From the IMG/VR virus record IMGVR_UViG_3300045988_161286: a stretch of 64,000 bases of DNA. The stretch is one strand, 5' to 3'. Under the pieces are notes generated by a model. The model ran no database searches and was not told the origin of the DNA. It saw only the letters and a list, made by a program, of their open reading frames with translations. A program made the position numbers and the translations under genes. Of this stretch, positions 3,016-17,429 are shown in pieces (positions within the stretch are counted from its first letter, which is position 1; each line of letters starts with the position of its first letter). This DNA comes from a virus.

Positions 3016-4206
3016 TTATTTATTATTATTTATCCAACCGACCAGTAAATTTCTCATCCTTGAGGATGGGATATAGATGTTAATTTCTTTGTTATCTCTG
3101 ATTGCACTTCTCCAGATAAACTGAAGCATTTCACTGAGAGCAAAACCGTCTTCATCGACCGTAACGCCTTTGTTCTCAAAAAATCTTATAAAAACAGGTG
3201 AAATATACCTATTGACCGGATAGGCAATTGCTGTTTTATTTCTAAACTCATTGGATGCTCGTAGGTTACACGGTATAAATCCTTTTGTATATCCTTTACC
3301 TTTGAGCTTGTGTTGGTAATCTTTAAAGCTTGTCCACATACGCTCATTAGATTTAGCAGGTGCTATCCATCTAAAAAAATTATATAAATGATTTTTTAGG
3401 ACACTAATTTCATCCTTATGGGTTTGATACCAATGCTTGCTAAGTGCTGTGGCAGGATCGCCAATTTCGTTCATTTTTTCATTATCGCATATATGTATTA
3501 ACTGAGAATAGTCTGCACAATAATAATTAATCTTTTCTTGTACAAAAGTATAGTTAGTGTAATCTGTGCCGTCTATCCACCAATATGTTGGTTCTATGTG
3601 GAATAAGTTAAAATAGAGCGATATGATAGAAGACTCATACATATAAGTAAGAATAAAGACTTGACAGAAAGCTCTGAAATTTTCGATAGGGAAGAGTTTA
3701 ACATACTGACTGCCTGTATCATATAAAGTTTTACTAAAACACATATCTCGAATATACTTCAAACTTCCTGCGGTATAACTATCTTGCGTCCATTTTACAC
3801 ATCCAAACTCGTCAGCTTCAGTAGCTAAAAACTCTCTGATTGATAGAGCGTCCCCTTGCGAGATGTGTAAACTCTCAATAGGTGTAATAGTTTCGTCAAG
3901 GATTAAAATATACCCCCGTTGCAACAACAATTGTCGTATATCCTGATCGAATAACATAAACAAAGCATGAGTAATTACTATGTTTCTGTTTTCAGCAATA
4001 AGTTTTTTCAGCCCTTCTTTTTTTGTGGGATCTTCTTGTGGCTCTACAAACTCTTTATTGACGCAACTGCTTTTAATTCTCTCAACTTCCGACAAATACG
4101 GAGTGCAAAAAATAAAATGTTCATCTCCTGATGAGTTGTTAATGTAATTAATAGCTGCTGAAGTTTTTCCTTGCCCCATACGAGCATTTACAACATTCAA
4201 TTCCAC
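3016..4206 (-). CDS. P-loop NTPase, SF2 helicase-like
   Basis: GTG start after AAAGGAGGG. Walker A is ARMGQGKTS and Walker B/DExx is ILILDET. Confidence 0.7.
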   Translation of the reverse strand: MELNVVNARMGQGKTSAAINYINNSSGDEHFIFCTPYLSEVERIKSSCVNKEFVEPQEDPTKKEGLKKLIAENRNIVITHALFMLFDQDIRQLLLQRGYILILDETITPIESLHISQGDALSIREFLATEADEFGCVKWTQDSYTAGSLKYIRDMCFSKTLYDTGSQYVKLFPIENFRAFCQVFILTYMYESSIISLYFNLFHIEPTYWWIDGTDYTNYTFVQEKINYYCADYSQLIHICDNEKMNEIGDPATALSKHWYQTHKDEISVLKNHLYNFFRWIAPAKSNERMWTSFKDYQHKLKGKGYTKGFIPCNLRASNEFRNKTAIAYPVNRYISPVFIRFFENKGVTVDEDGFALSEMLQFIWRSAIRDNKEINIYIPSSRMRNLLVGWINNNK

Positions 4207-4786
4207 TTGCAGCCCTCCTTTATATGATGTGTATTGCGTTGGTTGTTGTTCGTAATCCGATCTCTTCTTTACAAGTAAATGTTTGTGTTGATGTGTGAAT
4301 TGCCTCTACATCAAAATCACTCCTTTCAAGACTTATAACATGGTGTTCATTTTTGTCACAAAAACCCCAAACCCCCAATGCCAATGCGGGTTTCCACCAT
4401 TTTGGGGCAGCGGAACTAGTTCGCTTGTTTCAAAAAGTTCTCTGTATAATTTTTAATATATAGAGATAGGTAAGAGAAAAGTCCATAAATACTGGAGTTT
4501 TTAGCTTGTCTTCCACTTTTCAAAGCCTGCGCTTCCTCTGTATATTAAGTTAAGGAATACATTTGTCCCAAAAGTTTTGCAGACTAAGCCTTTACAGACA
4601 AATGTATTGGTCGCTTAATTCTCTCGAACAGCAAGCTTATTCTGAGATTGCCAATCGTTCATTAAGCTCCTTTACTCTAAACTTTACCTTAGAATCCGTA
4701 GATAGTAGTTGCAAGAGAGTGTGTCTATGTTCAATAAATTTATTTCCCAACAAGGGAAAAGAAAAACTAAAACAGTAGCTACTCCT

Positions 4787-5623: not shown

Positions 5624-6060
5624 ATGTATCGAACATCCTTTCTAAATTGTTTTCTGAACTAATTGTACCATATATCCTAAAAATGTCAAGTAAAAATGAC
5701 TTAAAAATCAAAGTTTTTTGAAAAAATTCCAAGTTATGGAAATGCAAGTATATTCATTATTTTTTGTAAAGGATATTTTTATCGGAACAAATTCACCATT
5801 TGTATAGGAAATAAATTTCAGGATTTGTAGAGGGAGAGAGAAAAAGAGAAAATAAAAATACGAGATTTTAAGTCTGACTGTGAGAAGAAGTAACTGCATA
5901 CTTAAAGCATAATTATGCACGCTAAAAATATGGAATATATCCCCCATTTAACATTGTGCAATTTTGTGAAGTGAAAATTATACATTTTTTTGTATAAATA
6001 TTCATTTCATAGTATATATATGTTTTGCAATCATTATAGTCGGCAAGAAATAAAAACGAC

Positions 6061-6090
6061 TTGACAATTGCGGCTCGGGTGTGGTATAGT
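6061..6090 (+). promoter_or_regulatory. sigma-70-type promoter for gene 6158
   Basis: TTGACA (6061-6066), 18-nt spacer, TGgTATAGT extended -10 (6085-6090). Confidence 0.55.
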
Positions 6091-6123
6091 ATAGGGGTAG
6101 GGCAACCTACAGTACACAAAAAA

Positions 6124-6139
6124 TGTTGCATATGCAACA
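6124..6139. promoter_or_regulatory. 16-bp perfect palindrome, operator candidate
   Basis: TGTTGCATATGCAACA lies between the promoter and the SD of gene 6158. A related GTTGCAAATGCAAC occurs at 56023-56036. Confidence 0.45.
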
Positions 6140-6157
6140 AAAATCAAGGAGGCTATC

Positions 6158-7291
6158 ATGAAAAAAATCAAACACGCAATCACATTGTATGGTACATGGA
6201 AAAAAATTTATATTCCATGTTCTTATTTTAACAAGTGTAACAAGCTTGTTAAAGATGAAGTCAAGAACACACTACGAAATAAGACTATTCAAGACTATGT
6301 TCGGGGCTTATACAAGACTGCACGGTCAAACCGTATGTATAACAACTTGTACACTCTCACATATCAGATCGCTTGCAAGGTATGTAGAAACAACAAGATT
6401 AAAGACTTGCTTCCGGGCTTATACTCCGATTTTCAACAAGTCAGTAAAGCTATTACGGCGCCGGCTCAAATCGAACAAGCAATCAAACAGACTATAAAAG
6501 ACTTGAATTTTGACTATCTGAAACAATATCACGACAAAAAAACACACTCCGTCAAATTGTGGAACGCTCAAACGGTAAAATCTCATATCGGTTATTTATT
6601 GACCTACAGTCCTAACAAGTCATTATCTTTTTTCGCTGATTTATTGCACACGGGACTTGACGAACCTCTCACAATTGACGGTTTAACCGTATGGAATGTT
6701 GCAAGTTCATGTACAAGTCTTTTGGACTTAAAAGACAAACTCAGTCAAATATACACACTCAAAACTACAAAACATAATTATGACAAAAAACTGCATACAC
6801 TTGTTGACGGCTCTATATATCAAATGACCGTCAACGGATTGCGCCGTGTATTTATCATCGGTGACGGTGACACAATAACGGAGACTAACGATAAATATAT
6901 ATGTGAACGCAAGCAAAACGGATTGCAGTATATGTATAGTAATGTGCGTAAATATCTGTACTCTCAGCGTTCCGCCGATACAATCAGCTTGCAAGCTCCT
7001 ACAAGTCAAGACTTGACACTTGCCGATTTATTGCAAGACAAATCAGACGCACGGGCGCTACAGGAATTTAAAGCATATGTAAATATCATCAACGATTTTT
7101 ACAAGACATATAAAAGCAGTAGTAAAGTAGTCTTAAAAACATTTGATATCTATTGCCAATATTTGACGGTAAAATGCCTCGGCTTATCCGATAATGTTGC
7201 AAGCAAGAAAATCAATGTACCATGCCGCAGTGTTGAGCGGTACAAAGCAATGTATAACACAATGTTTTATGATTTCGTCAAAAACAAATAG
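6158..7291 (+). CDS. hypothetical protein with a C-terminal sigma-factor region 3/4-like HTH
   Basis: ATG after AAGGAGG. The C-terminal ~90 aa (ISLQAPTSQDLTLADLLQD ... VLKTFDIYCQYL ... GLSDNVASKKINVPCRSVERYK) loosely resembles sigma-70 r3/r4. The functional call is weak. Confidence 0.6.
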   Translation: MKKIKHAITLYGTWKKIYIPCSYFNKCNKLVKDEVKNTLRNKTIQDYVRGLYKTARSNRMYNNLYTLTYQIACKVCRNNKIKDLLPGLYSDFQQVSKAITAPAQIEQAIKQTIKDLNFDYLKQYHDKKTHSVKLWNAQTVKSHIGYLLTYSPNKSLSFFADLLHTGLDEPLTIDGLTVWNVASSCTSLLDLKDKLSQIYTLKTTKHNYDKKLHTLVDGSIYQMTVNGLRRVFIIGDGDTITETNDKYICERKQNGLQYMYSNVRKYLYSQRSADTISLQAPTSQDLTLADLLQDKSDARALQEFKAYVNIINDFYKTYKSSSKVVLKTFDIYCQYLTVKCLGLSDNVASKKINVPCRSVERYKAMYNTMFYDFVKNK

Positions 7292-7304
7292 TCTTGCAGT
7301 ATTT

Positions 7305-7339
7305 GCCCACTTCTGAAAAACAGAAGTGGGCATTTTTTT
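7305..7339 (+). terminator. rho-independent terminator
   Basis: GCCCACTTCTG-aaaaa-CAGAAGTGGGC followed by a T-run. Confidence 0.8.
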
Positions 7340-7384
7340 ATGCTTTTATTGCTCATATTGTGCAACATGTATATTATAATTCTT

Positions 7385-8125
7385 TTAAAAAAATATAGAT
7401 TGTGTAGTATTTTTGGCGGAAAATGCCCTTCCTATTTCGTATATATAGTGTACAAAAACAAACAACAAACAAACAAAACCGCAAACAAGCGGTAAACATT
7501 TGTTAGTTATTTGTAATTGTAAAAACGATATCACGCAAGATACACCGATTTTGCGGTGCAATGATTTGAAATGAAGGTTTTGAGTCGTACTGCGGAACTC
7601 GAAAAGGTCTTGAATTTCGTTTCGGATAAGCGTGAGAGCGTGCCGAGCGGCGTATCGTTTGCCTACCTGTGGGGCTGCACCAAAAATGCAGTCACAGAGC
7701 GGAACATTCCGCTTAAGGGCGATGGAGCTTCGTGGAAGCCGAAGCAGATTGTTGAATGGTGGCGTCGTTGCATCCAGATTGTAACGGGTAGTTTCGCTGT
7801 AATGAAACAGTGCAGACTTGAGTAAACAAGGAAGATGGCTGAAATCTTCACTAAACCGCTTGAAGTGAACAAGTGTCGTAATATCCAAATCACAACAATA
7901 ATAACTATTAAAGGCTCTTGGCTAACCTGAGCAAGTCCGTTTCAGATCTGAGGCGGGTAACTTGTATTCTGCTCAAGACCTTGAGTGTCGGGTGACAAAG
8001 ATACCTTCATATCTGCCTTGAGCCTTTTAATATACATACTTGTTTTCTATCATTCTGCAAAGCACACATCTGAGGTAATGGCTTGGTCTGTTGCCTGAGC
8101 TGTGTGCTTTGTTGCACACGAATAT
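7385..8125 (+). ncRNA. large structured RNA candidate or very long structured 5' leader of gene 8146
   Basis: ~740 nt with no credible ORF: only mutually overlapping ORFs on both strands, none with an SD. It is visibly GC-richer than its flanks. It is dense in local hairpins (GCTTCG/CGAAGC, GAAGAT/ATCTTC, CTGCA/TGCAG, AGCGG/CCGCT, AAAGCACACA/TGTGTGCTTT) and has a long-range AAGGCTC(7911)/GAGCCTT(8011) pairing. Confidence 0.5.
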
Positions 8126-8145
8126 TTTAATAAGGAGTGTTCAAA

Positions 8146-9021
8146 ATGACAGAAACTGAAGTAATGGTAAAAGAAATCGTAGGAACTAAGAAGATTGAGC
8201 GCAAGACCTCATCTGATGGACTTGACAGCAAGCTTGCTGCTCTTGAAAAAGCTACAAAAGTATTGCAGACAGCCGCTGAGAGTGAAAACTTGGCTGAGTT
8301 TGCAAAAACAAATGAAGATGCTAAAGATGCTCAGGATGATTACAACAATTATTTCACAAAATACTGCTTTGAGAATTTTCTTGAGGCTGAGCATCCGGCA
8401 TTTGAAGTGTTAAAAGCAGGCTTCCTTGATTATAAATCAATCAAGGGTGAGGCAACGCTGGGGGCAGTTACATATAGTGTTGTAACTGTATCTAAGCAGA
8501 TTAACTTTTTGGCATTCAATGCAGAAGCTCGTTGTTTCGGCAATAAGCTCGGCAAAGCAGCAACACTGCTTGCTTACTATGTGAGTCTATACAAGACCAC
8601 ACAGGTCGCTAATGGTAAAAACATCATTAGCGGGTTCAATCACGCTTATCAGTCTTCAAAAAGGGCTGTGGCACAGGATCAGCTCTTGAGCAAAGTGCCA
8701 TCTAAAACTTTGCTCAAGAAGGCTTTGCAGGATGTTATCGATGAGCTTTGGTTTGTCGATAATGGCAAAAACGAGAATAAGTATGTAGTAACAACTCAGT
8801 GGTGTAATTTTATGCTGGACTTTATTGTTACAGCAAGAATGACCAAAACTGAGGCTTTTTATCAGACCGCCTCACCTGAGAAGGTTGTACAGGCTTGTGC
8901 AAACTTGATGCACAAGCTTATCAACCGCTATGACATCTCAATCAAAGTCGAGGATAAAACTGTTCCGACTGTTGAATTGACTGCTCAGGATGAAAATAAG
9001 GATGAGACTGAACAGAAGTAA
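8146..9021 (+). CDS. hypothetical protein (291 aa)
   Basis: ATG 8146 lies 8 nt after AAGGAG. The track start at 8137 is an upstream GTG inside the SD. No motif recognised. Confidence 0.8.
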   Translation: MTETEVMVKEIVGTKKIERKTSSDGLDSKLAALEKATKVLQTAAESENLAEFAKTNEDAKDAQDDYNNYFTKYCFENFLEAEHPAFEVLKAGFLDYKSIKGEATLGAVTYSVVTVSKQINFLAFNAEARCFGNKLGKAATLLAYYVSLYKTTQVANGKNIISGFNHAYQSSKRAVAQDQLLSKVPSKTLLKKALQDVIDELWFVDNGKNENKYVVTTQWCNFMLDFIVTARMTKTEAFYQTASPEKVVQACANLMHKLINRYDISIKVEDKTVPTVELTAQDENKDETEQK

Positions 9022-15127: not shown

Positions 15128-15796
15128 ATGGATTTAAGTAAATTAGGAGATATTAACCCATATCAGAAGGAGCTGTCAACCACTATACATATAGTCGGAT
15201 GCGGAAGCGTAGGTAGTACGCAGGCAGAGCTTCTTGCAAGATATGGCTTTTGCAAGTTTAAATTATATGACTTTGATTTCGTTGAAAGTAAAAATCTTTG
15301 CAACCAGATGTTTTTTAATTCTGATTTAAACCACAACAAAGCAGAGTCATTAAAAAACATCTTGCTTTCCGTTAATCCGGATATCGAAGTTCAGGTGTTT
15401 GATAAAGGCTATATTAATCAGCGACTTAACGGAATCGTAATTCTTTGTGCTGACAATATTGATTTGTGTAGAAATATTTGCAAGCAGAATAGACTTAATC
15501 CATACATAAAGGTAATGTTGAATTACCGTACTGCAAGATACGATGCGCAGCACTATGCAGTAGAGTGGAGAGATAAACCAAGTGTGGATAATTTGATTAA
15601 AACAATGAATTTCACACATGAAGAAGCAAAAGCCGAAACTCCAGTGTCAGCATGTGGAGTAGAGATTGGTGAATCTATTGTTGTAAGAGATATTGTACTT
15701 AAAGGTACAACGAATCTGTTTAAATGGATTACCGAAAGAAAATTAAGCCCTTTGATTATATCTTCTCCATATAAATTTGACACGGTAGTAATGTAA
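15128..15796 (+). CDS. ThiF/MoeB/E1-like adenylyltransferase (minimal, 222 aa)
   Basis: IHIVGCGSVGSTQAELLARYG ... KLYDFDFVESKNLCNQ, i.e. a GxGxxG Rossmann motif plus D.D.ve.sNL..Q (nt 15197-15214 for GxGxxG). Confidence 0.75.
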   Translation: MDLSKLGDINPYQKELSTTIHIVGCGSVGSTQAELLARYGFCKFKLYDFDFVESKNLCNQMFFNSDLNHNKAESLKNILLSVNPDIEVQVFDKGYINQRLNGIVILCADNIDLCRNICKQNRLNPYIKVMLNYRTARYDAQHYAVEWRDKPSVDNLIKTMNFTHEEAKAETPVSACGVEIGESIVVRDIVLKGTTNLFKWITERKLSPLIISSPYKFDTVVM

Positions 15797-15809
15797 AGGA
15801 GGGACATGT

Positions 15810-16955
15810 ATGTGCTACTATGTGTGTTTGCCAAAAACCGAATCGAAGCCTAACATTTGGAGTTGGCTTGAAGGTGATATACATTCTCCACAGTGGTTAT
15901 GGGGTACTAAATCTGCGGCAGCCACAGTAACTCGCAGAGTCGATTTTATACCTGCGAGCGCAAAAGACAAATACAATGTCAATTTTATTGTTGGCATATT
16001 GGATGCCTTTAATAAAAAATGGAGTTATCTTGGACAAGAAATTGAAAAACATTATTCTCATTTCTATATTCCAAAAAAGAAATTAGACGAATATGGCAGA
16101 GTTAAATGGAGAGAAATTTGTGCTCCAGATGATGAATTATCTGAAGCATTGAAGGACTTAAAAGGGATTTTCGAGACTGCGGGTGTTTCATTACATCACA
16201 CCAACGCATACGCTTATGTTCGACATAGAACAGCCTCGGATGCAGTTTCCAAGCATCAGTATAACCATAGTCGCTGGTGGATAACAACTGATTTTCAAAA
16301 CTTTTTTGGTAATACTACCAAAGAATTTCTTATGTCTATGATGGCACAAATATTTCCATTTAGTGCAGTTATTGAACGAGATTTTGGAAAAGAGTGTTTA
16401 AGCAGGGCATTGGATTTATGTTTTCTTAATGGGGGCTTGCCACAAGGAACTCCAATCAGTCCAATGCTTACTAATATTATGATGATACCGTTTGACTACA
16501 TAATGACAAAAAAATGCCGTGAAAAAGACTATATATATACTCGATATAGCGATGATATACAAGTTTCACACCGTAGAAAGTTTAATCCAGATGAAGTTCT
16601 TGGATTCATCCATGAGACACTGACTCAAATTCACGCTCCGTTTACAATTGAGAAAGAAAAAACAAAGTTTAAAAGTGGAAATCAGTTCGTATTAGGTGTT
16701 ATGTATAATCAAAATTGCGACATTACAGTCGGTCATAAGAATAAAAAAGAGTTCAAAGCTACATTATTTAATTATATGTGTGATAGGCTAAGCGGTAAAG
16801 TTTGGGAGTTGCCACAACTCCAACAAATGATGGGTAAATATGCATATTACTCAATGATTGAAAAAGAGTATTTTGAAAATGTAATGAAGGAATATTCTCG
16901 TAAATTTAAGCAGGATGTTATGAAATGTATCAAAGCAGACTTGCGTAGATGCTAA
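15810..16955 (+). CDS. reverse transcriptase, retron/UG-like
   Basis: RT motifs: FYIPKKK ... REICAP, AYAYVRHRTASDAVSKH, WWITTDFQNFF, GLPQGTPISPMLTN, YSDD (16545-16556), and FVLGVMYN in place of the retron VTG. No maturase or endonuclease domains. Confidence 0.8.
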   Translation: MCYYVCLPKTESKPNIWSWLEGDIHSPQWLWGTKSAAATVTRRVDFIPASAKDKYNVNFIVGILDAFNKKWSYLGQEIEKHYSHFYIPKKKLDEYGRVKWREICAPDDELSEALKDLKGIFETAGVSLHHTNAYAYVRHRTASDAVSKHQYNHSRWWITTDFQNFFGNTTKEFLMSMMAQIFPFSAVIERDFGKECLSRALDLCFLNGGLPQGTPISPMLTNIMMIPFDYIMTKKCREKDYIYTRYSDDIQVSHRRKFNPDEVLGFIHETLTQIHAPFTIEKEKTKFKSGNQFVLGVMYNQNCDITVGHKNKKEFKATLFNYMCDRLSGKVWELPQLQQMMGKYAYYSMIEKEYFENVMKEYSRKFKQDVMKCIKADLRRC

Positions 16956-17036
16956 TAACATCTGGTGGAATTTTATTAAATTCTTAATGAAAATTCATTG
17001 CAAGTTTTTCGGAAACCATTTTGCTTGCAAATATAT

Positions 17037-17111
17037 TGAGCAGTCGCCAAGCGGTTAAGGCACTGGACTTTGACTCCAGTATCGTGGGTTCAATTCCCAC
17101 CTGCTCAGCCA
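17037..17111 (+). tRNA. tRNA-Gln (anticodon UUG)
   Basis: Hand-folded cloverleaf: acceptor TGAGCAG/CTGCTCA with U1-A72 and G73, anticodon loop CTTTGAC, T-loop TTCAATT, encoded CCA. Confidence 0.8.
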
Positions 17112-17113
17112 AA

Positions 17114-17268
17114 CGGTATTGTGTAGCTTTATAACCTTGCGGTTCAAAATAAAAATCTACCGTCATGGTAGAAAGACTTTATACTGATCAGTTACTCAGT
17201 TTGGCATTGAATGGAACGGCGGTGTCCCTTGACTGTTGTTCCGTCAGCCTTCAATCTACACAATACCG
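17114..17268 (+). other. inter-tRNA spacer closed by a 13-bp perfect inverted repeat
   Basis: CGGTATTGTGTAG (17114-17126) / CTACACAATACCG (17256-17268). Internal hairpins include CTACC-gtcat-GGTAG. Confidence 0.5.
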
Positions 17269-17273
17269 GATAT

Positions 17274-17349
17274 GACACAGTAGTCCAATGGCAGAGACAG
17301 CAGACTTAAAATCTGTAAAGTGAGAGTTCAAATCTCTTCTGTGTCACCA
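17274..17349 (+). tRNA. class-I tRNA with anticodon UAA (Leu codon UUA) and no long variable arm
   Basis: Acceptor GACACAG/CTGTGTC, A73, CCA. Anticodon stem GCAGA/TCTGT, loop CTTAAAA. 5-nt variable loop. T-arm GAGAG-TTCAAAT-CTCTT. Confidence 0.7.
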
Positions 17350-17352
17350 TAT

Positions 17353-17429
17353 GGACTGTTAGCTCAACTGGTTAGAGCGGCAAACTCATAATTTGCGGGT
17401 ACAGGGTTCGACTCCCTGACAGTCCACCA
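17353..17429 (+). tRNA. tRNA with anticodon CAU (elongator Met or Ile2)
   Basis: Acceptor GGACTGT/ACAGTCC, D-arm GCTC ... GAGC, anticodon loop CTCATAA, T-loop TTCGACT, A73, CCA. Confidence 0.8.

What the first reader, a model, noticed from the sequence alone, without database searches (positions are those of the whole stretch)
7385..8125. ~740-nt GC-rich, hairpin-dense non-coding block: large structured RNA candidate
This block lies between a strong terminator (7305-7339) and gene 8146. The genome otherwise packs genes end to end, but here it carries ~740 nt with only mutually overlapping, SD-less ORFs on both strands. Its base composition is clearly GC-shifted. It has many 5-10 bp hairpins, a long-range AAGGCTC/GAGCCTT pairing, and repeated motifs (ATCTGAGG x2, CCTGAGC x2, CAGATTGT x2). 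Large ornate RNAs such as ROOL and GOLLD are known from prophages of Firmicutes, often near tRNAs, and their functions are unknown. This block could be one of those, a new class, or an exceptionally long structured leader for the 291-aa protein.
Basis: partly seen in the sequence, partly recalled or inferred. Interest (0 to 1): 0.7.

Follow-up and report, generated by a model that had tools for sequence, protein, structure and literature searches.

The report
Conserved structured leader in gut phage
A ~690-base stretch in front of an operon of an uncultivated human-gut phage is kept almost unchanged by selection, folds unusually stably and does not evolve like a protein gene, so it is most likely a long structured regulatory RNA of a family not yet described. 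Its shape cannot yet be confirmed by comparison because all known copies are nearly identical.

Summary
The block is real, but its limits are about 7450/7470-8145. Only the core 7545-7870 is GC-rich (45-53% against about 37%).

- **Known families:** It matches none of the 4227 Rfam families, so it is not ROOL, GOLLD, HEARO or OLE.
- **Distribution:** About 60 copies were found, all in human-gut phage contigs and all at least 97% identical.
- **Selection:** Diversity in the block is 0.016. The next gene has 0.091 at four-fold degenerate sites, and the upstream gene is hypervariable.
- **Folding:** The + strand has z = -5.6 (genome controls -0.9 ± 1.3). The - strand has z = -3.0.
- **84-codon ORF (7571-7825):** It shows 2 synonymous against 14 non-synonymous changes and has no Shine-Dalgarno, while 21 of 25 phage genes have one. 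It has no homologues outside the lineage, and one relative reads it with a -1/+1 frameshift.
- **Covariation:** Weak. Two compensatory pairs were found, and the strand-specific tests were not significant.
- **3' end:** A 25-bp hairpin excludes a terminator-like hairpin just before the ribosome-binding site.
- **Relatives:** Some swap the regulator gene, leader and first gene for an unrelated cassette with the same layout.

Best reading: a long structured cis-regulatory leader RNA of a new, lineage-restricted family (confidence about 0.45).

The parts
7304..7339 (+). Intrinsic terminator of the upstream gene A (6158-7291). It marks the upstream limit of the unit.
   Evidence: 12-bp stem, 7 GC pairs, T7 run. 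The stem is kept through compensatory changes and the loop is inverted in some relatives.
7344..7404 (+). Conserved island: near-palindrome TTGCTCAtATTGTGCAA (7349-7365) and a perfect TATAAT (7375-7380). Candidate operator plus promoter. Inferred, not shown.
   Evidence: Nearly invariant in the alignment, with variable DNA on both sides. The sigma-70 consensus scan found no full -35/-10 pair on the + strand. The palindrome was found by pattern search.
7405..7434 (+). Allele-specific segment in three forms. Each form always occurs with one of three forms of the C-terminal helix-turn-helix of gene A.
   Evidence: perfect association in 43 sequences. Physical linkage is an alternative explanation.
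7435..7448 (+). Invariant TTTCGTATATATAG. Candidate -10-like element (CGTATA) for a gene-A-dependent promoter. Inferred only.
   Evidence: Invariant in all copies. It is unique in the window.
7452..7478 (+). (AAAC)n-type microsatellite whose length varies between copies.
   Evidence: Length variants were seen.
7470..8145 (+). Conserved block: the candidate structured RNA (alignment A3).
   Evidence: Nucleotide diversity is 0.016, against 0.091 at four-fold sites of gene B. Block distances correlate with gene-B synonymous distances. MFE z = -5.56 on the + strand. RNAalifold predicts 216 pairs in 27 helices.
7478..7493 (.). 5-bp GC-rich hairpin. On the - strand it is followed by a T-rich run, making it terminator-like for antisense transcription.
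   Evidence: -7.9 kcal/mol on either strand.
7546..7601 (+). Long hairpin (helices 6/7) whose apex holds the ATG of the 84-codon ORF. It is the best comparatively supported helix.
   Evidence: -22.5 kcal/mol, z = -4.7. Eight variable pairs all stay paired. Pair 7571/7578 occurs as A-U, G.U and G-C.
7571..7825 (+). 84-codon ORF that coincides with the GC-rich core. Probably not a gene.
   Evidence: Against coding:
- 2 synonymous against 14 non-synonymous changes.
- Diversity at codon positions 1/2/3 is 0.024/0.012/0.003.
- L010 carries -1 and +1 indels and a lost stop codon.
- No SD.
- Only its own lineage was found among 1.84 billion representative proteins.

For coding:
- Codon-usage score 0.106, p about 0.05.
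- AlphaFold2 single-sequence pLDDT 77.6.
7667..7697 (+). Hairpin (helix 11) with the second compensatory pair, 7677/7689, seen as G-C, G.U and A-U.
   Evidence: L035 and L040.
7906..8032 (+). Three-way-junction domain closed by the AAAGGCUC...GAGCCUUU helix.
   Evidence: -46.3 kcal/mol, z = -4.9. The closing helix is invariant, so it offers no comparative test.
8057..8112 (+). 25-pair hairpin. Its 3' arm overlaps the terminator-like hairpin, so it is a candidate antiterminator or RNase III-type duplex.
   Evidence: -32.3 kcal/mol, z = -5.95. Inverted repeat I1.
8101..8131 (+). Terminator-like hairpin UGUGUGC/GCACACG followed by AAUAUUUUAAU, directly before the SD.
   Evidence: -10.6 kcal/mol. 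It is mutually exclusive with the 8057-8112 hairpin. The U-run can pair with the SD.
8133..8148 (+). SD AAGGAG and the ATG of gene B (291 aa, 8146-9021).
   Evidence: Gene B has a normal coding signature: diversity at codon positions 1/2/3 is 0.021/0.012/0.081.
6158..7291 (+). Gene A (377 aa): a hypervariable putative DNA-binding or sigma-like regulator. It is part of the same exchangeable cassette.
   Evidence: - Diversity 0.13-0.37.
- 374 clusters at 90% identity.
- The C-terminal four helices are modelled confidently, pLDDT 78-93.
- The counterpart in the alternative cassette has sub-threshold ECF-sigma hits.

Best explanation
The block is the long (~690 nt), highly structured, untranslated 5' leader of the + strand transcript that begins just downstream of gene A's terminator and runs into gene B and the genes after it.

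Inferred: transcription starts from promoter-like elements at 7344-7448, possibly under control of the gene A product.

The leader folds into three parts:
- a 5' domain (about 7472-7753) that contains the GC-rich core;
- a second domain (7754-8055) that contains a three-way junction (7906-8032);
- a terminal 25-bp hairpin (8057-8112).

The 3' arm of that hairpin competes with a small terminator-like hairpin (8101-8120 plus a U-run). The U-run can in turn pair with the Shine-Dalgarno of gene B. The leader would therefore set how much transcription and/or translation reaches gene B, by attenuation, SD masking or processing at the long duplex.

Shown: nucleotide-level purifying selection, exceptional + strand folding stability, a non-coding evolutionary signature, and the physical arrangement of the competing hairpins.

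Inferred: the promoter, the strand actually transcribed, and the regulatory logic. The signal sensed is unknown.
For: - **Conservation island.** Diversity is 0.004-0.018 per 100 nt in the block. It is 0.13-0.37 in gene A and 0.02-0.05 in gene B. The block averages 0.016 against 0.091 at four-fold sites of gene B.
- **Shared history with gene B.** Block distances rise with gene-B synonymous distances (Spearman 0.55). This argues for constraint rather than a separate sweep.
- **Folding.** + strand MFE z = -5.56, against controls of -0.93 ± 1.31 (minimum -3.52). The - strand gives -2.98. Sub-domains give z of -4.7 to -5.95.
- **The ORF is not under protein-level selection**. It lacks an SD, which 21 of 25 genes have, and it has no homologues outside the lineage.
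- **Compensatory pairs.** 7571/7578 occurs as A-U, G.U and G-C. 7677/7689 occurs as G-C, G.U and A-U.
- **Pairing is kept.** 99.9% of cells are paired, against 35-41% for slid partners.
- **3' end.** Mutually exclusive hairpins and a U-run sit directly before the SD.
- **Parallel cassette.** A non-homologous cassette in relatives has the same layout: regulator gene, terminator, a ~680-nt non-coding leader with z = -5.8, a stable hairpin, a small hairpin, a U-run, the SD, then a ~300-aa gene.
Against: - **Covariation is not significant.** With a structure taken from the window sequence alone, transitions at Watson-Crick pairs give 11 G.U plus 2 compensatory against 10 breaks on the + strand. 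The - strand gives 14 against 14.
- **Held-out copies are too few.** In 9 distinct held-out copies the + structure has 5 kept and 2 broken; the - structure has 2 kept and 5 broken (p = 0.23).
- **Compensatory pairs are weak evidence.** Two such pairs are reached in 30 of 500 shuffles.
- **A C>T mutational bias** on the + strand could mimic wobble-compatible change.
- **No consensus sigma-70 promoter** was found on the + strand, and there are no expression data.
- **The ORF is not excluded as a gene.** Its codon usage is marginally gene-like, p about 0.05, and AlphaFold2 gives a fairly confident helical model.
- **The U-run of the terminator-like hairpin is interrupted and weak.**
Confidence: 0.45

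Rival explanations
1. A stand-alone large structured non-coding RNA, acting in trans or as an RNA-only or RNP particle in the manner proposed for ROOL or GOLLD. It would either be released from the leader by processing at the 8057-8112 duplex or end at the 8101-8131 terminator-like site.
For: It shares the conservation and stability evidence above. The size is about 650 nt with multi-domain architecture, including a closed three-way junction. A terminator-like site lies at its 3' end. Two hairpin loops carry invariant 6-nt complementarity, UGAAGG 7572-7577 and CCUUCA 8004-8009 (I6). The neighbouring pair 7578:8003 varies as U-A, U.G and C-G, with one C.A exception.
Against: There is no Rfam match. 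It is restricted to one narrow phage lineage, whereas known ornate RNAs are widespread. It sits directly against an SD and gene with only a weak terminator between them. It is not next to tRNAs. The loop-loop complementarity is expected by chance at roughly the 0.1 level.
Confidence: 0.2
2. The GC-rich core encodes a real, lineage-specific 84-aa protein (7571-7825, + strand), for example a small regulator. The rest of the block would be its UTRs and the control region of gene B.
For: - The ORF is open in all ~60 copies.
- An 84-codon stop-free frame occurs in only about 0.9% of composition-matched shuffles per frame.
- The codon-usage score is 0.106, against 0.012 ± 0.054 for stop-free shuffles (p about 0.05). 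That is just under the weakest real gene at 0.113.
- The AlphaFold2 single-sequence model is a three-helix bundle, pLDDT 77.6, pTM 0.66.
- Gene callers call it in many contigs.
Against: - 2 synonymous against 14 non-synonymous changes.
- Third codon positions are the most conserved: 0.003, against 0.081 for third positions and 0.091 for four-fold sites in gene B.
- L010 keeps 98% nucleotide identity yet reads 27 codons in another frame and loses the stop.
- No SD in an SD-dependent genome.
- The start codon lies in a conserved stem, and its A>G change is compensated by the partner base.
- GC3 is 0.58 against a genome value of 0.31.
- No Pfam, PHROG, NCBIfam or PDB relative and no fold match.
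- Exhaustive HMMER finds only its own lineage plus spurious repeat hits.
Confidence: 0.2
3. The constraint acts on DNA, not RNA. The block would be a protein-binding control region, an origin or a packaging site.
For: Strong nucleotide conservation without a coding signature. There is an operator-like palindrome and an allele-specific segment that tracks the gene A helix-turn-helix just upstream. Comparative evidence for RNA pairing is not significant.
Against: Uniform constraint over 680 nt is far more than operators need. There are no iterons or tandem repeats inside the block. The strand asymmetry in folding stability (z -5.6 against -3.0, a 51 kcal/mol difference from G.U pairs) is a single-strand property. 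The replication genes lie 33 kb away. The AT-rich divergent region at 5624-6157 is a better candidate origin.
Confidence: 0.1
4. The functional product is read from the - strand. It would be an antisense RNA ending at the - strand terminator-like hairpin (7493-7478 plus T-run), or the 167-codon - strand ORF (7888-7385).
For: A - strand terminator-like site lies exactly at the 5' border of the conserved block, and a weak - strand promoter-like match lies at 8152-8124. In the core, 6 of the 14 substitution types (including the commonest ones) are synonymous in the - strand frame, which is codon-aligned with the + strand ORF (own reading).
Against: - The - strand folding z of -2.98 lies within the genome range.
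- The - ORF has null-like codon usage at -0.066, a TTG start without SD and no internal Met.
- A nonsense variant (7582 G>A) occurs in three copies.
- Frameshifting length variation in the (AAAC)n tract falls inside it.
- Promoter-like matches are fewer than in shuffles.
Confidence: 0.05

Closest known systems
ROOL and GOLLD large ornate RNAs of phages and prophages (Rfam families; structures in PMC12286853)
   Same: Several-hundred-nucleotide, multi-domain, phage-borne non-coding sequence of unknown function with unusually stable predicted folding.
   Different: No covariance-model match, even at E <= 10. It is not beside a tRNA island, whereas ROOL and GOLLD are 'often near tRNA islands' (PMC12286853). 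It is confined to one narrow lineage instead of being widespread. It abuts the ribosome-binding site of a gene. Oligomeric cage formation is untestable here.
Transcription-attenuation leaders (terminator/antiterminator switches such as riboswitch, T-box or protein-controlled leaders; own knowledge)
   Same: The block lies between a promoter region and the first gene. A stable hairpin excludes a downstream hairpin plus U-run placed immediately before the SD.
   Different: About 690 nt is several times longer than typical leaders. No known aptamer or T-box matches. The sensor and signal are unknown. The U-run is weak. The antiterminator is much more stable than the terminator (-32 against -11 kcal/mol).
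Phage early-leader RNA elements: lambda nut / HK022 put antitermination RNAs, RNase III sites of T7 and lambda N leaders, and leader-derived immunity RNAs of P4 (CI) and P1/P7 (c4) (own knowledge)
   Same: A structured RNA in the leader of a phage operon next to the integrase/regulator module. It has a long near-perfect duplex of RNase III substrate size, and internal complementary and repeated short segments.
   Different: No sequence or model similarity was tested or found. The repeated short segments are at chance level. No factor such as N or Q was identified. Processing is untested.
Small phage DNA-binding proteins (Xis/Cro-like) encoded next to integrase
   Same: Position next to the integrase, the size (84 aa), and a helical AlphaFold2 model.
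   Different: No family, PDB or fold match. The substitution pattern is non-coding. There is no SD.

Membership tests
ROOL / GOLLD / HEARO / OLE (Rfam covariance models) | Significant match to the family covariance model (sequence plus structure) | tested here: not met
   A whole-window scan at gathering thresholds finds only four tRNA matches. A scan of 7200-8300 with relaxed filters up to E = 10 lists only terminator-like or miRNA-like noise. None of these families appears.
ROOL / GOLLD | Frequent location next to tRNA genes or islands in phages and prophages (PMC12286853) | tested here: not met
   The nearest tRNAs are at 17037-17429, 9 kb downstream.
Large structured ncRNA (generic, Breaker-type criteria) | Secondary structure supported by covariation across diverged homologues | tested here: inconclusive
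   All ~60 copies are at least 97% identical. There are two compensatory pairs, reached by 30 of 500 shuffles. Unbiased strand tests are not significant.
Large structured ncRNA (generic) | Folding stability beyond composition and the genome background | tested here: met
   z = -5.56, against controls of -0.93 ± 1.31 (n = 34, minimum -3.52).
Large structured ncRNA (generic) | Nucleotide-level purifying selection without a coding signature | tested here: met
   Block diversity is 0.016 against 0.091 at neighbouring four-fold sites. No frame shows an excess of synonymous change.
Protein-coding gene (84-aa ORF 7571-7825) | Excess of synonymous / third-position change | tested here: not met
   2 synonymous against 14 non-synonymous changes. 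Diversity at codon positions 1/2/3 is 0.024/0.012/0.003, against 0.021/0.012/0.081 in gene B.
Protein-coding gene (84-aa ORF) | Ribosome-binding site as in other genes of the genome | tested here: not met
   21 of 25 genes have a GGAG-type SD. The ORF has none.
Protein-coding gene (84-aa ORF) | Homologues beyond the immediate lineage, or a known domain | tested here: not met
Protein-coding gene (84-aa ORF) | Reading frame preserved and codon usage gene-like | tested here: inconclusive
   The frame is open in all copies but frame-shifted over 27 codons in L010. Codon-usage score p is about 0.05.
Terminator/antiterminator attenuation leader | Hairpin plus U-run upstream of the regulated gene, and an alternative, mutually exclusive hairpin | tested here: met
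   8101-8120 plus AAUAUUUUAAU. The 8057-8112 hairpin shares 8101-8112 with it. The U-run is weak.
Terminator/antiterminator attenuation leader | Promoter upstream, and conditional termination shown experimentally | not testable with these tools
   Only promoter-like conserved pieces are seen at 7344-7448. The scan finds no consensus -35/-10 pair.
Riboswitch / T-box | Match to a known aptamer or T-box model | tested here: not met

The most novel reading that the evidence does not exclude
The block is the founding member of a new class of large (~0.65-0.7 kb) multi-domain structured phage RNA. It would be paired with a hyperdiverse sigma-like regulator in an exchangeable 'regulator + RNA + first gene' cassette, in which the RNA itself acts as sensor, scaffold or trans-acting particle rather than as a passive leader. 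The unrelated but equally structured leader of the alternative cassette would then be a second, analogous class.
Probability: 0.2. Interest if true: 0.7.

Novelty: new variant of a known kind. Interest (0 to 1): 0.42.

Why it matters
Few long structured RNAs of phages are known, and their functions are mostly unsolved. This one is under selection about as strong as that on amino-acid-changing sites of the neighbouring gene. It sits at the control point between a rapidly diversifying regulator gene and a conserved operon in a common human-gut phage lineage. It also has a non-homologous counterpart with the same layout in sister phages.

If the RNA reading is right, the two cassettes form a natural experiment on how a phage couples a regulator, a long leader RNA and its first operon gene. 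The element could be tested directly with reporters. If the reading is wrong and the 84-aa ORF is real, the ORF's odd substitution pattern would itself need explaining.

Tried and rejected
- **Diversity-generating retroelement.** I suspected one because gene A's 3' end is hypervariable and a reverse transcriptase lies at 15810-16955. No template/variable repeat exists in the window, and the RT is retron-like, not DGR-like. Rejected.
- **Searches for diverged homologues.** All returned either the same near-identical lineage or nothing:
  - phage and plasmid BLAST;
  - exact-pattern scans of IMG/VR with three patterns;
  - JGI metagenomes;
  - GTDB genomes;
  - gene B homologues;
  - ORF homologues;
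  - the more distant phage MT835508, which is not syntenic;
  - nhmmer of the block against all fetched loci and the window.
- **RNAalifold-based 'wobble-compatible versus breaking' counts.** They looked strongly positive for the + strand (14 against 5). The same procedure on the - strand gave 14 against 7, so the test is biased and I discarded it as proof.
- **Gene A as a sigma factor.** There was no family hit and nothing from a profile search against PDB. The AlphaFold2 model is poor outside the C-terminus, and Foldseek gave nothing significant. Only the type-2 counterpart has sub-threshold ECF-sigma hits.
- **A regulon motif.** TTTCGTATATATAG and the palindrome are not repeated elsewhere in the window.
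- **Origin or iteron reading.** There are no repeats inside the block.
Full report
**1. What is there**

- The upstream gene A (6158-7291, + strand) ends in a strong intrinsic terminator at 7304-7339.
- The next gene with a ribosome-binding site is gene B, with ATG at 8146 and AAGGAG at 8133-8138.
- Between them lie about 800 nt that contain only overlapping ORFs without SD. The largest are an 84-codon ORF on the + strand (7571-7825) and a 167-codon ORF on the - strand (7888-7385).
- GC content rises to 45-53% only in 7545-7870. The 5' part is AT-rich and the 3' part is near the genome average.
- The AAGGCTC/GAGCCTT pairing is real. It is part of a 15-pair helix that closes a three-way junction.

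**2. Known RNA families**

Rfam 15 (4227 models) finds only four tRNA matches in the window at gathering thresholds. A relaxed scan of 7200-8300 up to E = 10 shows nothing but terminator-like noise. ROOL, GOLLD, HEARO, OLE, riboswitches, T-boxes, introns and ribozymes are therefore not matched. The tRNAs are 9 kb away. ROOL and GOLLD are described as often lying near tRNA islands (PMC12286853).

**3. Distribution**

The block was found in three sets of contigs:
- 9 IMG/VR contigs;
- 13 metagenome contigs;
- about 40 ENA/Logan contigs.

All come from the human gut. The block is always between gene A and gene B, and every copy is at least 97% identical.

It is absent from the INPHARED phages, PLSDB plasmids and 185,579 GTDB species genomes. 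Gene B has a single homologue cluster.

The genome is an uncultivated tailed phage. It carries a capsid gene, a DnaE-type polymerase, a primase-helicase, NrdD, a cytosine methylase and integrases. It uses strong Shine-Dalgarno sites. The host is unknown.

**4. Selection**

Diversity across 10-31 copies is as follows.

| Region | Nucleotide diversity |
|---|---|
| Block, per 100-nt window | 0.004-0.018 |
| Gene A | 0.13-0.37 |
| Gene B | 0.02-0.05 |
| Gene B, codon positions 1 / 2 / 3 | 0.021 / 0.012 / 0.081 |
| Gene B, four-fold degenerate sites | 0.091 |
| Block, average | 0.016 |

Gene B shows a textbook coding signature. The block evolves about six times more slowly than neutral sites next door.

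Pairwise block distances increase with gene-B synonymous distances (Spearman 0.55). For the most diverged pairs the block reaches only 0.018-0.027, against 0.13-0.17 at gene-B third positions. The low diversity is therefore constraint, not a separate recent sweep. This is the firmest result: the block is functional as nucleic acid.

**5. Is it coding?**

*The 84-codon ORF on the + strand.*
- It shows 2 synonymous against 14 non-synonymous substitution types.
- Its third codon positions are the most conserved, at 0.003.
- In locus L010 the sequence stays about 98% identical, but a -1 and a +1 indel put 27 codons in another frame, and the stop codon becomes CAA.
- It has no SD, whereas 21 of 25 genes do.
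- Its ATG lies in a stem, and the ATG>GTG change is matched by the partner base.
- Pfam, PHROGs, NCBIfam, PDB sequences, Foldseek and an exhaustive HMMER search of 1.84 billion representatives find nothing outside the lineage. The only other matches are spurious hits to repeat proteins.

*In its favour.*
- A stop-free 84-codon frame is uncommon at this composition (0.9% per frame).
- Its codon-usage score is marginally gene-like, p about 0.05.
- AlphaFold2 gives a helical model with pLDDT 77.6 from the single sequence.

I put a real protein at about 0.2.

*The - strand ORF.* It has null-like codon usage and no SD. Three copies carry a nonsense variant, and frameshifting repeat-length variation falls inside it.

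**6. Is it a structured RNA, and on which strand?**

*Thermodynamics.*
- The + strand folds at -226 kcal/mol, z = -5.56.
- Thirty-four windows of the same size from this genome give -0.93 ± 1.31, with a minimum of -3.52.
- The - strand gives -2.98.
- Sub-domains are each strongly stable, with z from -4.7 to -5.95.

*Comparative evidence.* RNAalifold predicts 216 pairs in 27 helices. Of all cells, 99.9% are paired, against 35-41% when partners are slid. Two pairs change on both sides:
- 7571/7578, seen as A-U, G.U and G-C;
- 7677/7689, seen as G-C, G.U and A-U.

Thirty of 500 column shuffles also reach two such pairs.

The count of wobble-compatible against pair-breaking transitions is not strand-specific once the structure is fixed independently:
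- + strand: 11 plus 2 compensatory, against 10 breaks;
- - strand: 14 plus 1 compensatory, against 14 breaks.

In 9 distinct held-out copies, the 12 new substitutions give 5 kept, 2 broken and 5 unpaired on the + structure. On the - structure, 2 pairs are kept and 5 are broken (not significant). A C>T bias could contribute to that difference.

Verdict: stability and constraint are strong, but covariation is insufficient because the family is too shallow.

**7. Anatomy and likely mechanism**

From 5' to 3', after the terminator:
- a conserved island with a near-palindrome (7349-7365) and a perfect TATAAT (7375-7380);
- a 30-nt segment (7405-7434) that occurs in three forms;
- an invariant TTTCGTATATATAG (7435-7448);
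- a length-variable (AAAC)n tract (7452-7478);
- the conserved block.

The block ends in a 25-pair hairpin (8057-8112, -32 kcal/mol). Its 3' arm overlaps a smaller hairpin (8101-8120, -10.6 kcal/mol), which is followed by AAUAUUUUAAU. That U-run can pair with the SD.

This is the layout of an attenuation or translation-control leader, or of an RNase III-type processing site. I commit to a long cis-acting leader RNA that gates expression of gene B and the genes behind it (confidence 0.45). The promoter, the transcribed strand and the signal are inferred, not shown.

**8. The cassette**

Phages with the same integrase (95-99% identical) replace 6160-9009 by unrelated DNA of the same design. In order, that design is:
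- a 299-aa gene with sub-threshold ECF-sigma hits;
- a terminator;
- a ~680-nt non-coding leader containing 34-nt GC-rich tandem repeats, with z = -5.8;
- a stable hairpin, a small hairpin and a U-run;
- an SD and a 306-aa gene.

There too, the first gene is variable while the leader's 3' part and the second gene are conserved. nhmmer and Rfam find no similarity between the two leaders, or to any known family. The parallel architecture supports the view that regulator gene, leader and first gene form one functional unit.

**9. Gene A**

- It has 374 clusters at 90% identity, against one or two for gene B and the ORF.
- Its C-terminal four-helix region is modelled with pLDDT 78-93, although the overall model is poor at 48.6.
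- That region occurs in three forms, and each is always linked to one form of the 7405-7434 segment (43 of 43 sequences).

This could be regulator-site co-evolution, or simply linkage.

**10. Comparison and novelty**

The block works most like a phage or bacterial attenuation leader. In size and phage setting it resembles ROOL and GOLLD, but it fails their membership tests. It is an undescribed, lineage-restricted element, best classed as a new variant of a known kind.

Interest is moderate at 0.42. The constraint and stability are striking and the cassette context is unusual. However, long structured leaders are not surprising in phages, and the structure cannot yet be validated.

Noticed in passing
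window 6160-9009; L043 3018-5466 (- strand), also L049, L051, L052, L055, L057: Sister phages with a 95-99% identical integrase replace gene A, the block and gene B by a non-homologous cassette. The layout is the same: a sigma-like gene, a terminator, a ~680-nt structured non-coding leader, then a ~300-aa gene.
   Followed up: partly
window 6158-7291 and 7405-7434: Gene A is hyperdiverse: 374 clusters at 90% identity, and diversity up to 0.37 at its C-terminal helix-turn-helix. Three forms of that helix-turn-helix are perfectly associated with three forms of a 30-nt segment just downstream of the conserved TATAAT island (43 of 43 sequences).
   Followed up: partly
window 15128-17429: A retron-type reverse transcriptase (15810-16955; NCBIfam retron_St85_RT, E = 2e-45, below the cut-off) follows a ThiF/E1-like gene (15128-15796) and two unknown genes. 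Three tRNA genes (Gln, Leu, Met) follow it. No retron ncRNA was found by Rfam.
   Followed up: no
L011 13648-14799; L012 15491-17039: IS605-type OrfB/TnpB (Cas12f-like) genes are inserted at different places downstream of the operon in two relatives. One has a resolvase next to it. Neither insertion is present at these positions in the window.
   Followed up: no
window 7304-7339 (relatives in alignment A1); L057 against L043 at the hairpin about 3970-4000: The loops of terminator or leader hairpins are exactly inverted (reverse-complemented) between relatives while the stems are kept. This is a sign of inversion across the inverted repeat.
   Followed up: no
L043 about 4430-4560 (- strand): The type-2 leader contains a 34-nt GC-rich tandem repeat (GACGGACACCCTCGGCGACAGAACAGTCAGAGAG). 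Its copy number differs between otherwise 97-98% identical phages.
   Followed up: no
window 7452-7478: An (AAAC)n-type microsatellite at the 5' edge of the conserved block varies in length (18-40 nt between the invariant TTTCGTATATATAG motif and the 7478 hairpin) among near-identical copies.
   Followed up: no
window 7572-7577 and 8004-8009 (also 7604-7613 with 7973-7982): Two predicted hairpin loops are complementary over 6 nt (UGAAGG/CCUUCA). The flanking pair 7578:8003 occurs as U-A, U.G and C-G, with one C.A exception. A perfect 10-nt long-range complement also exists. These are possible tertiary or alternative pairings, each near chance level on its own.
   Followed up: partly
contigs carrying gene A and L011, L012, L035, L039, L068: Some contigs holding this locus are 366-700 kb long, although no GTDB species genome carries it. 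Either the phage is integrated in an unrepresented host chromosome, or the genome is very large.
   Followed up: no
window 7634-7711 (ORF residues 22-47): The ORF peptide segment ESVPSGVSFAYLWGCTKNAVTERNIP resembles one unit of a leucine-rich-repeat-like motif (NLPSGLTYAYFYGCT...) in the unrelated repeat protein P0004. This may hint that the GC-rich core derives from a gene fragment.
   Followed up: no
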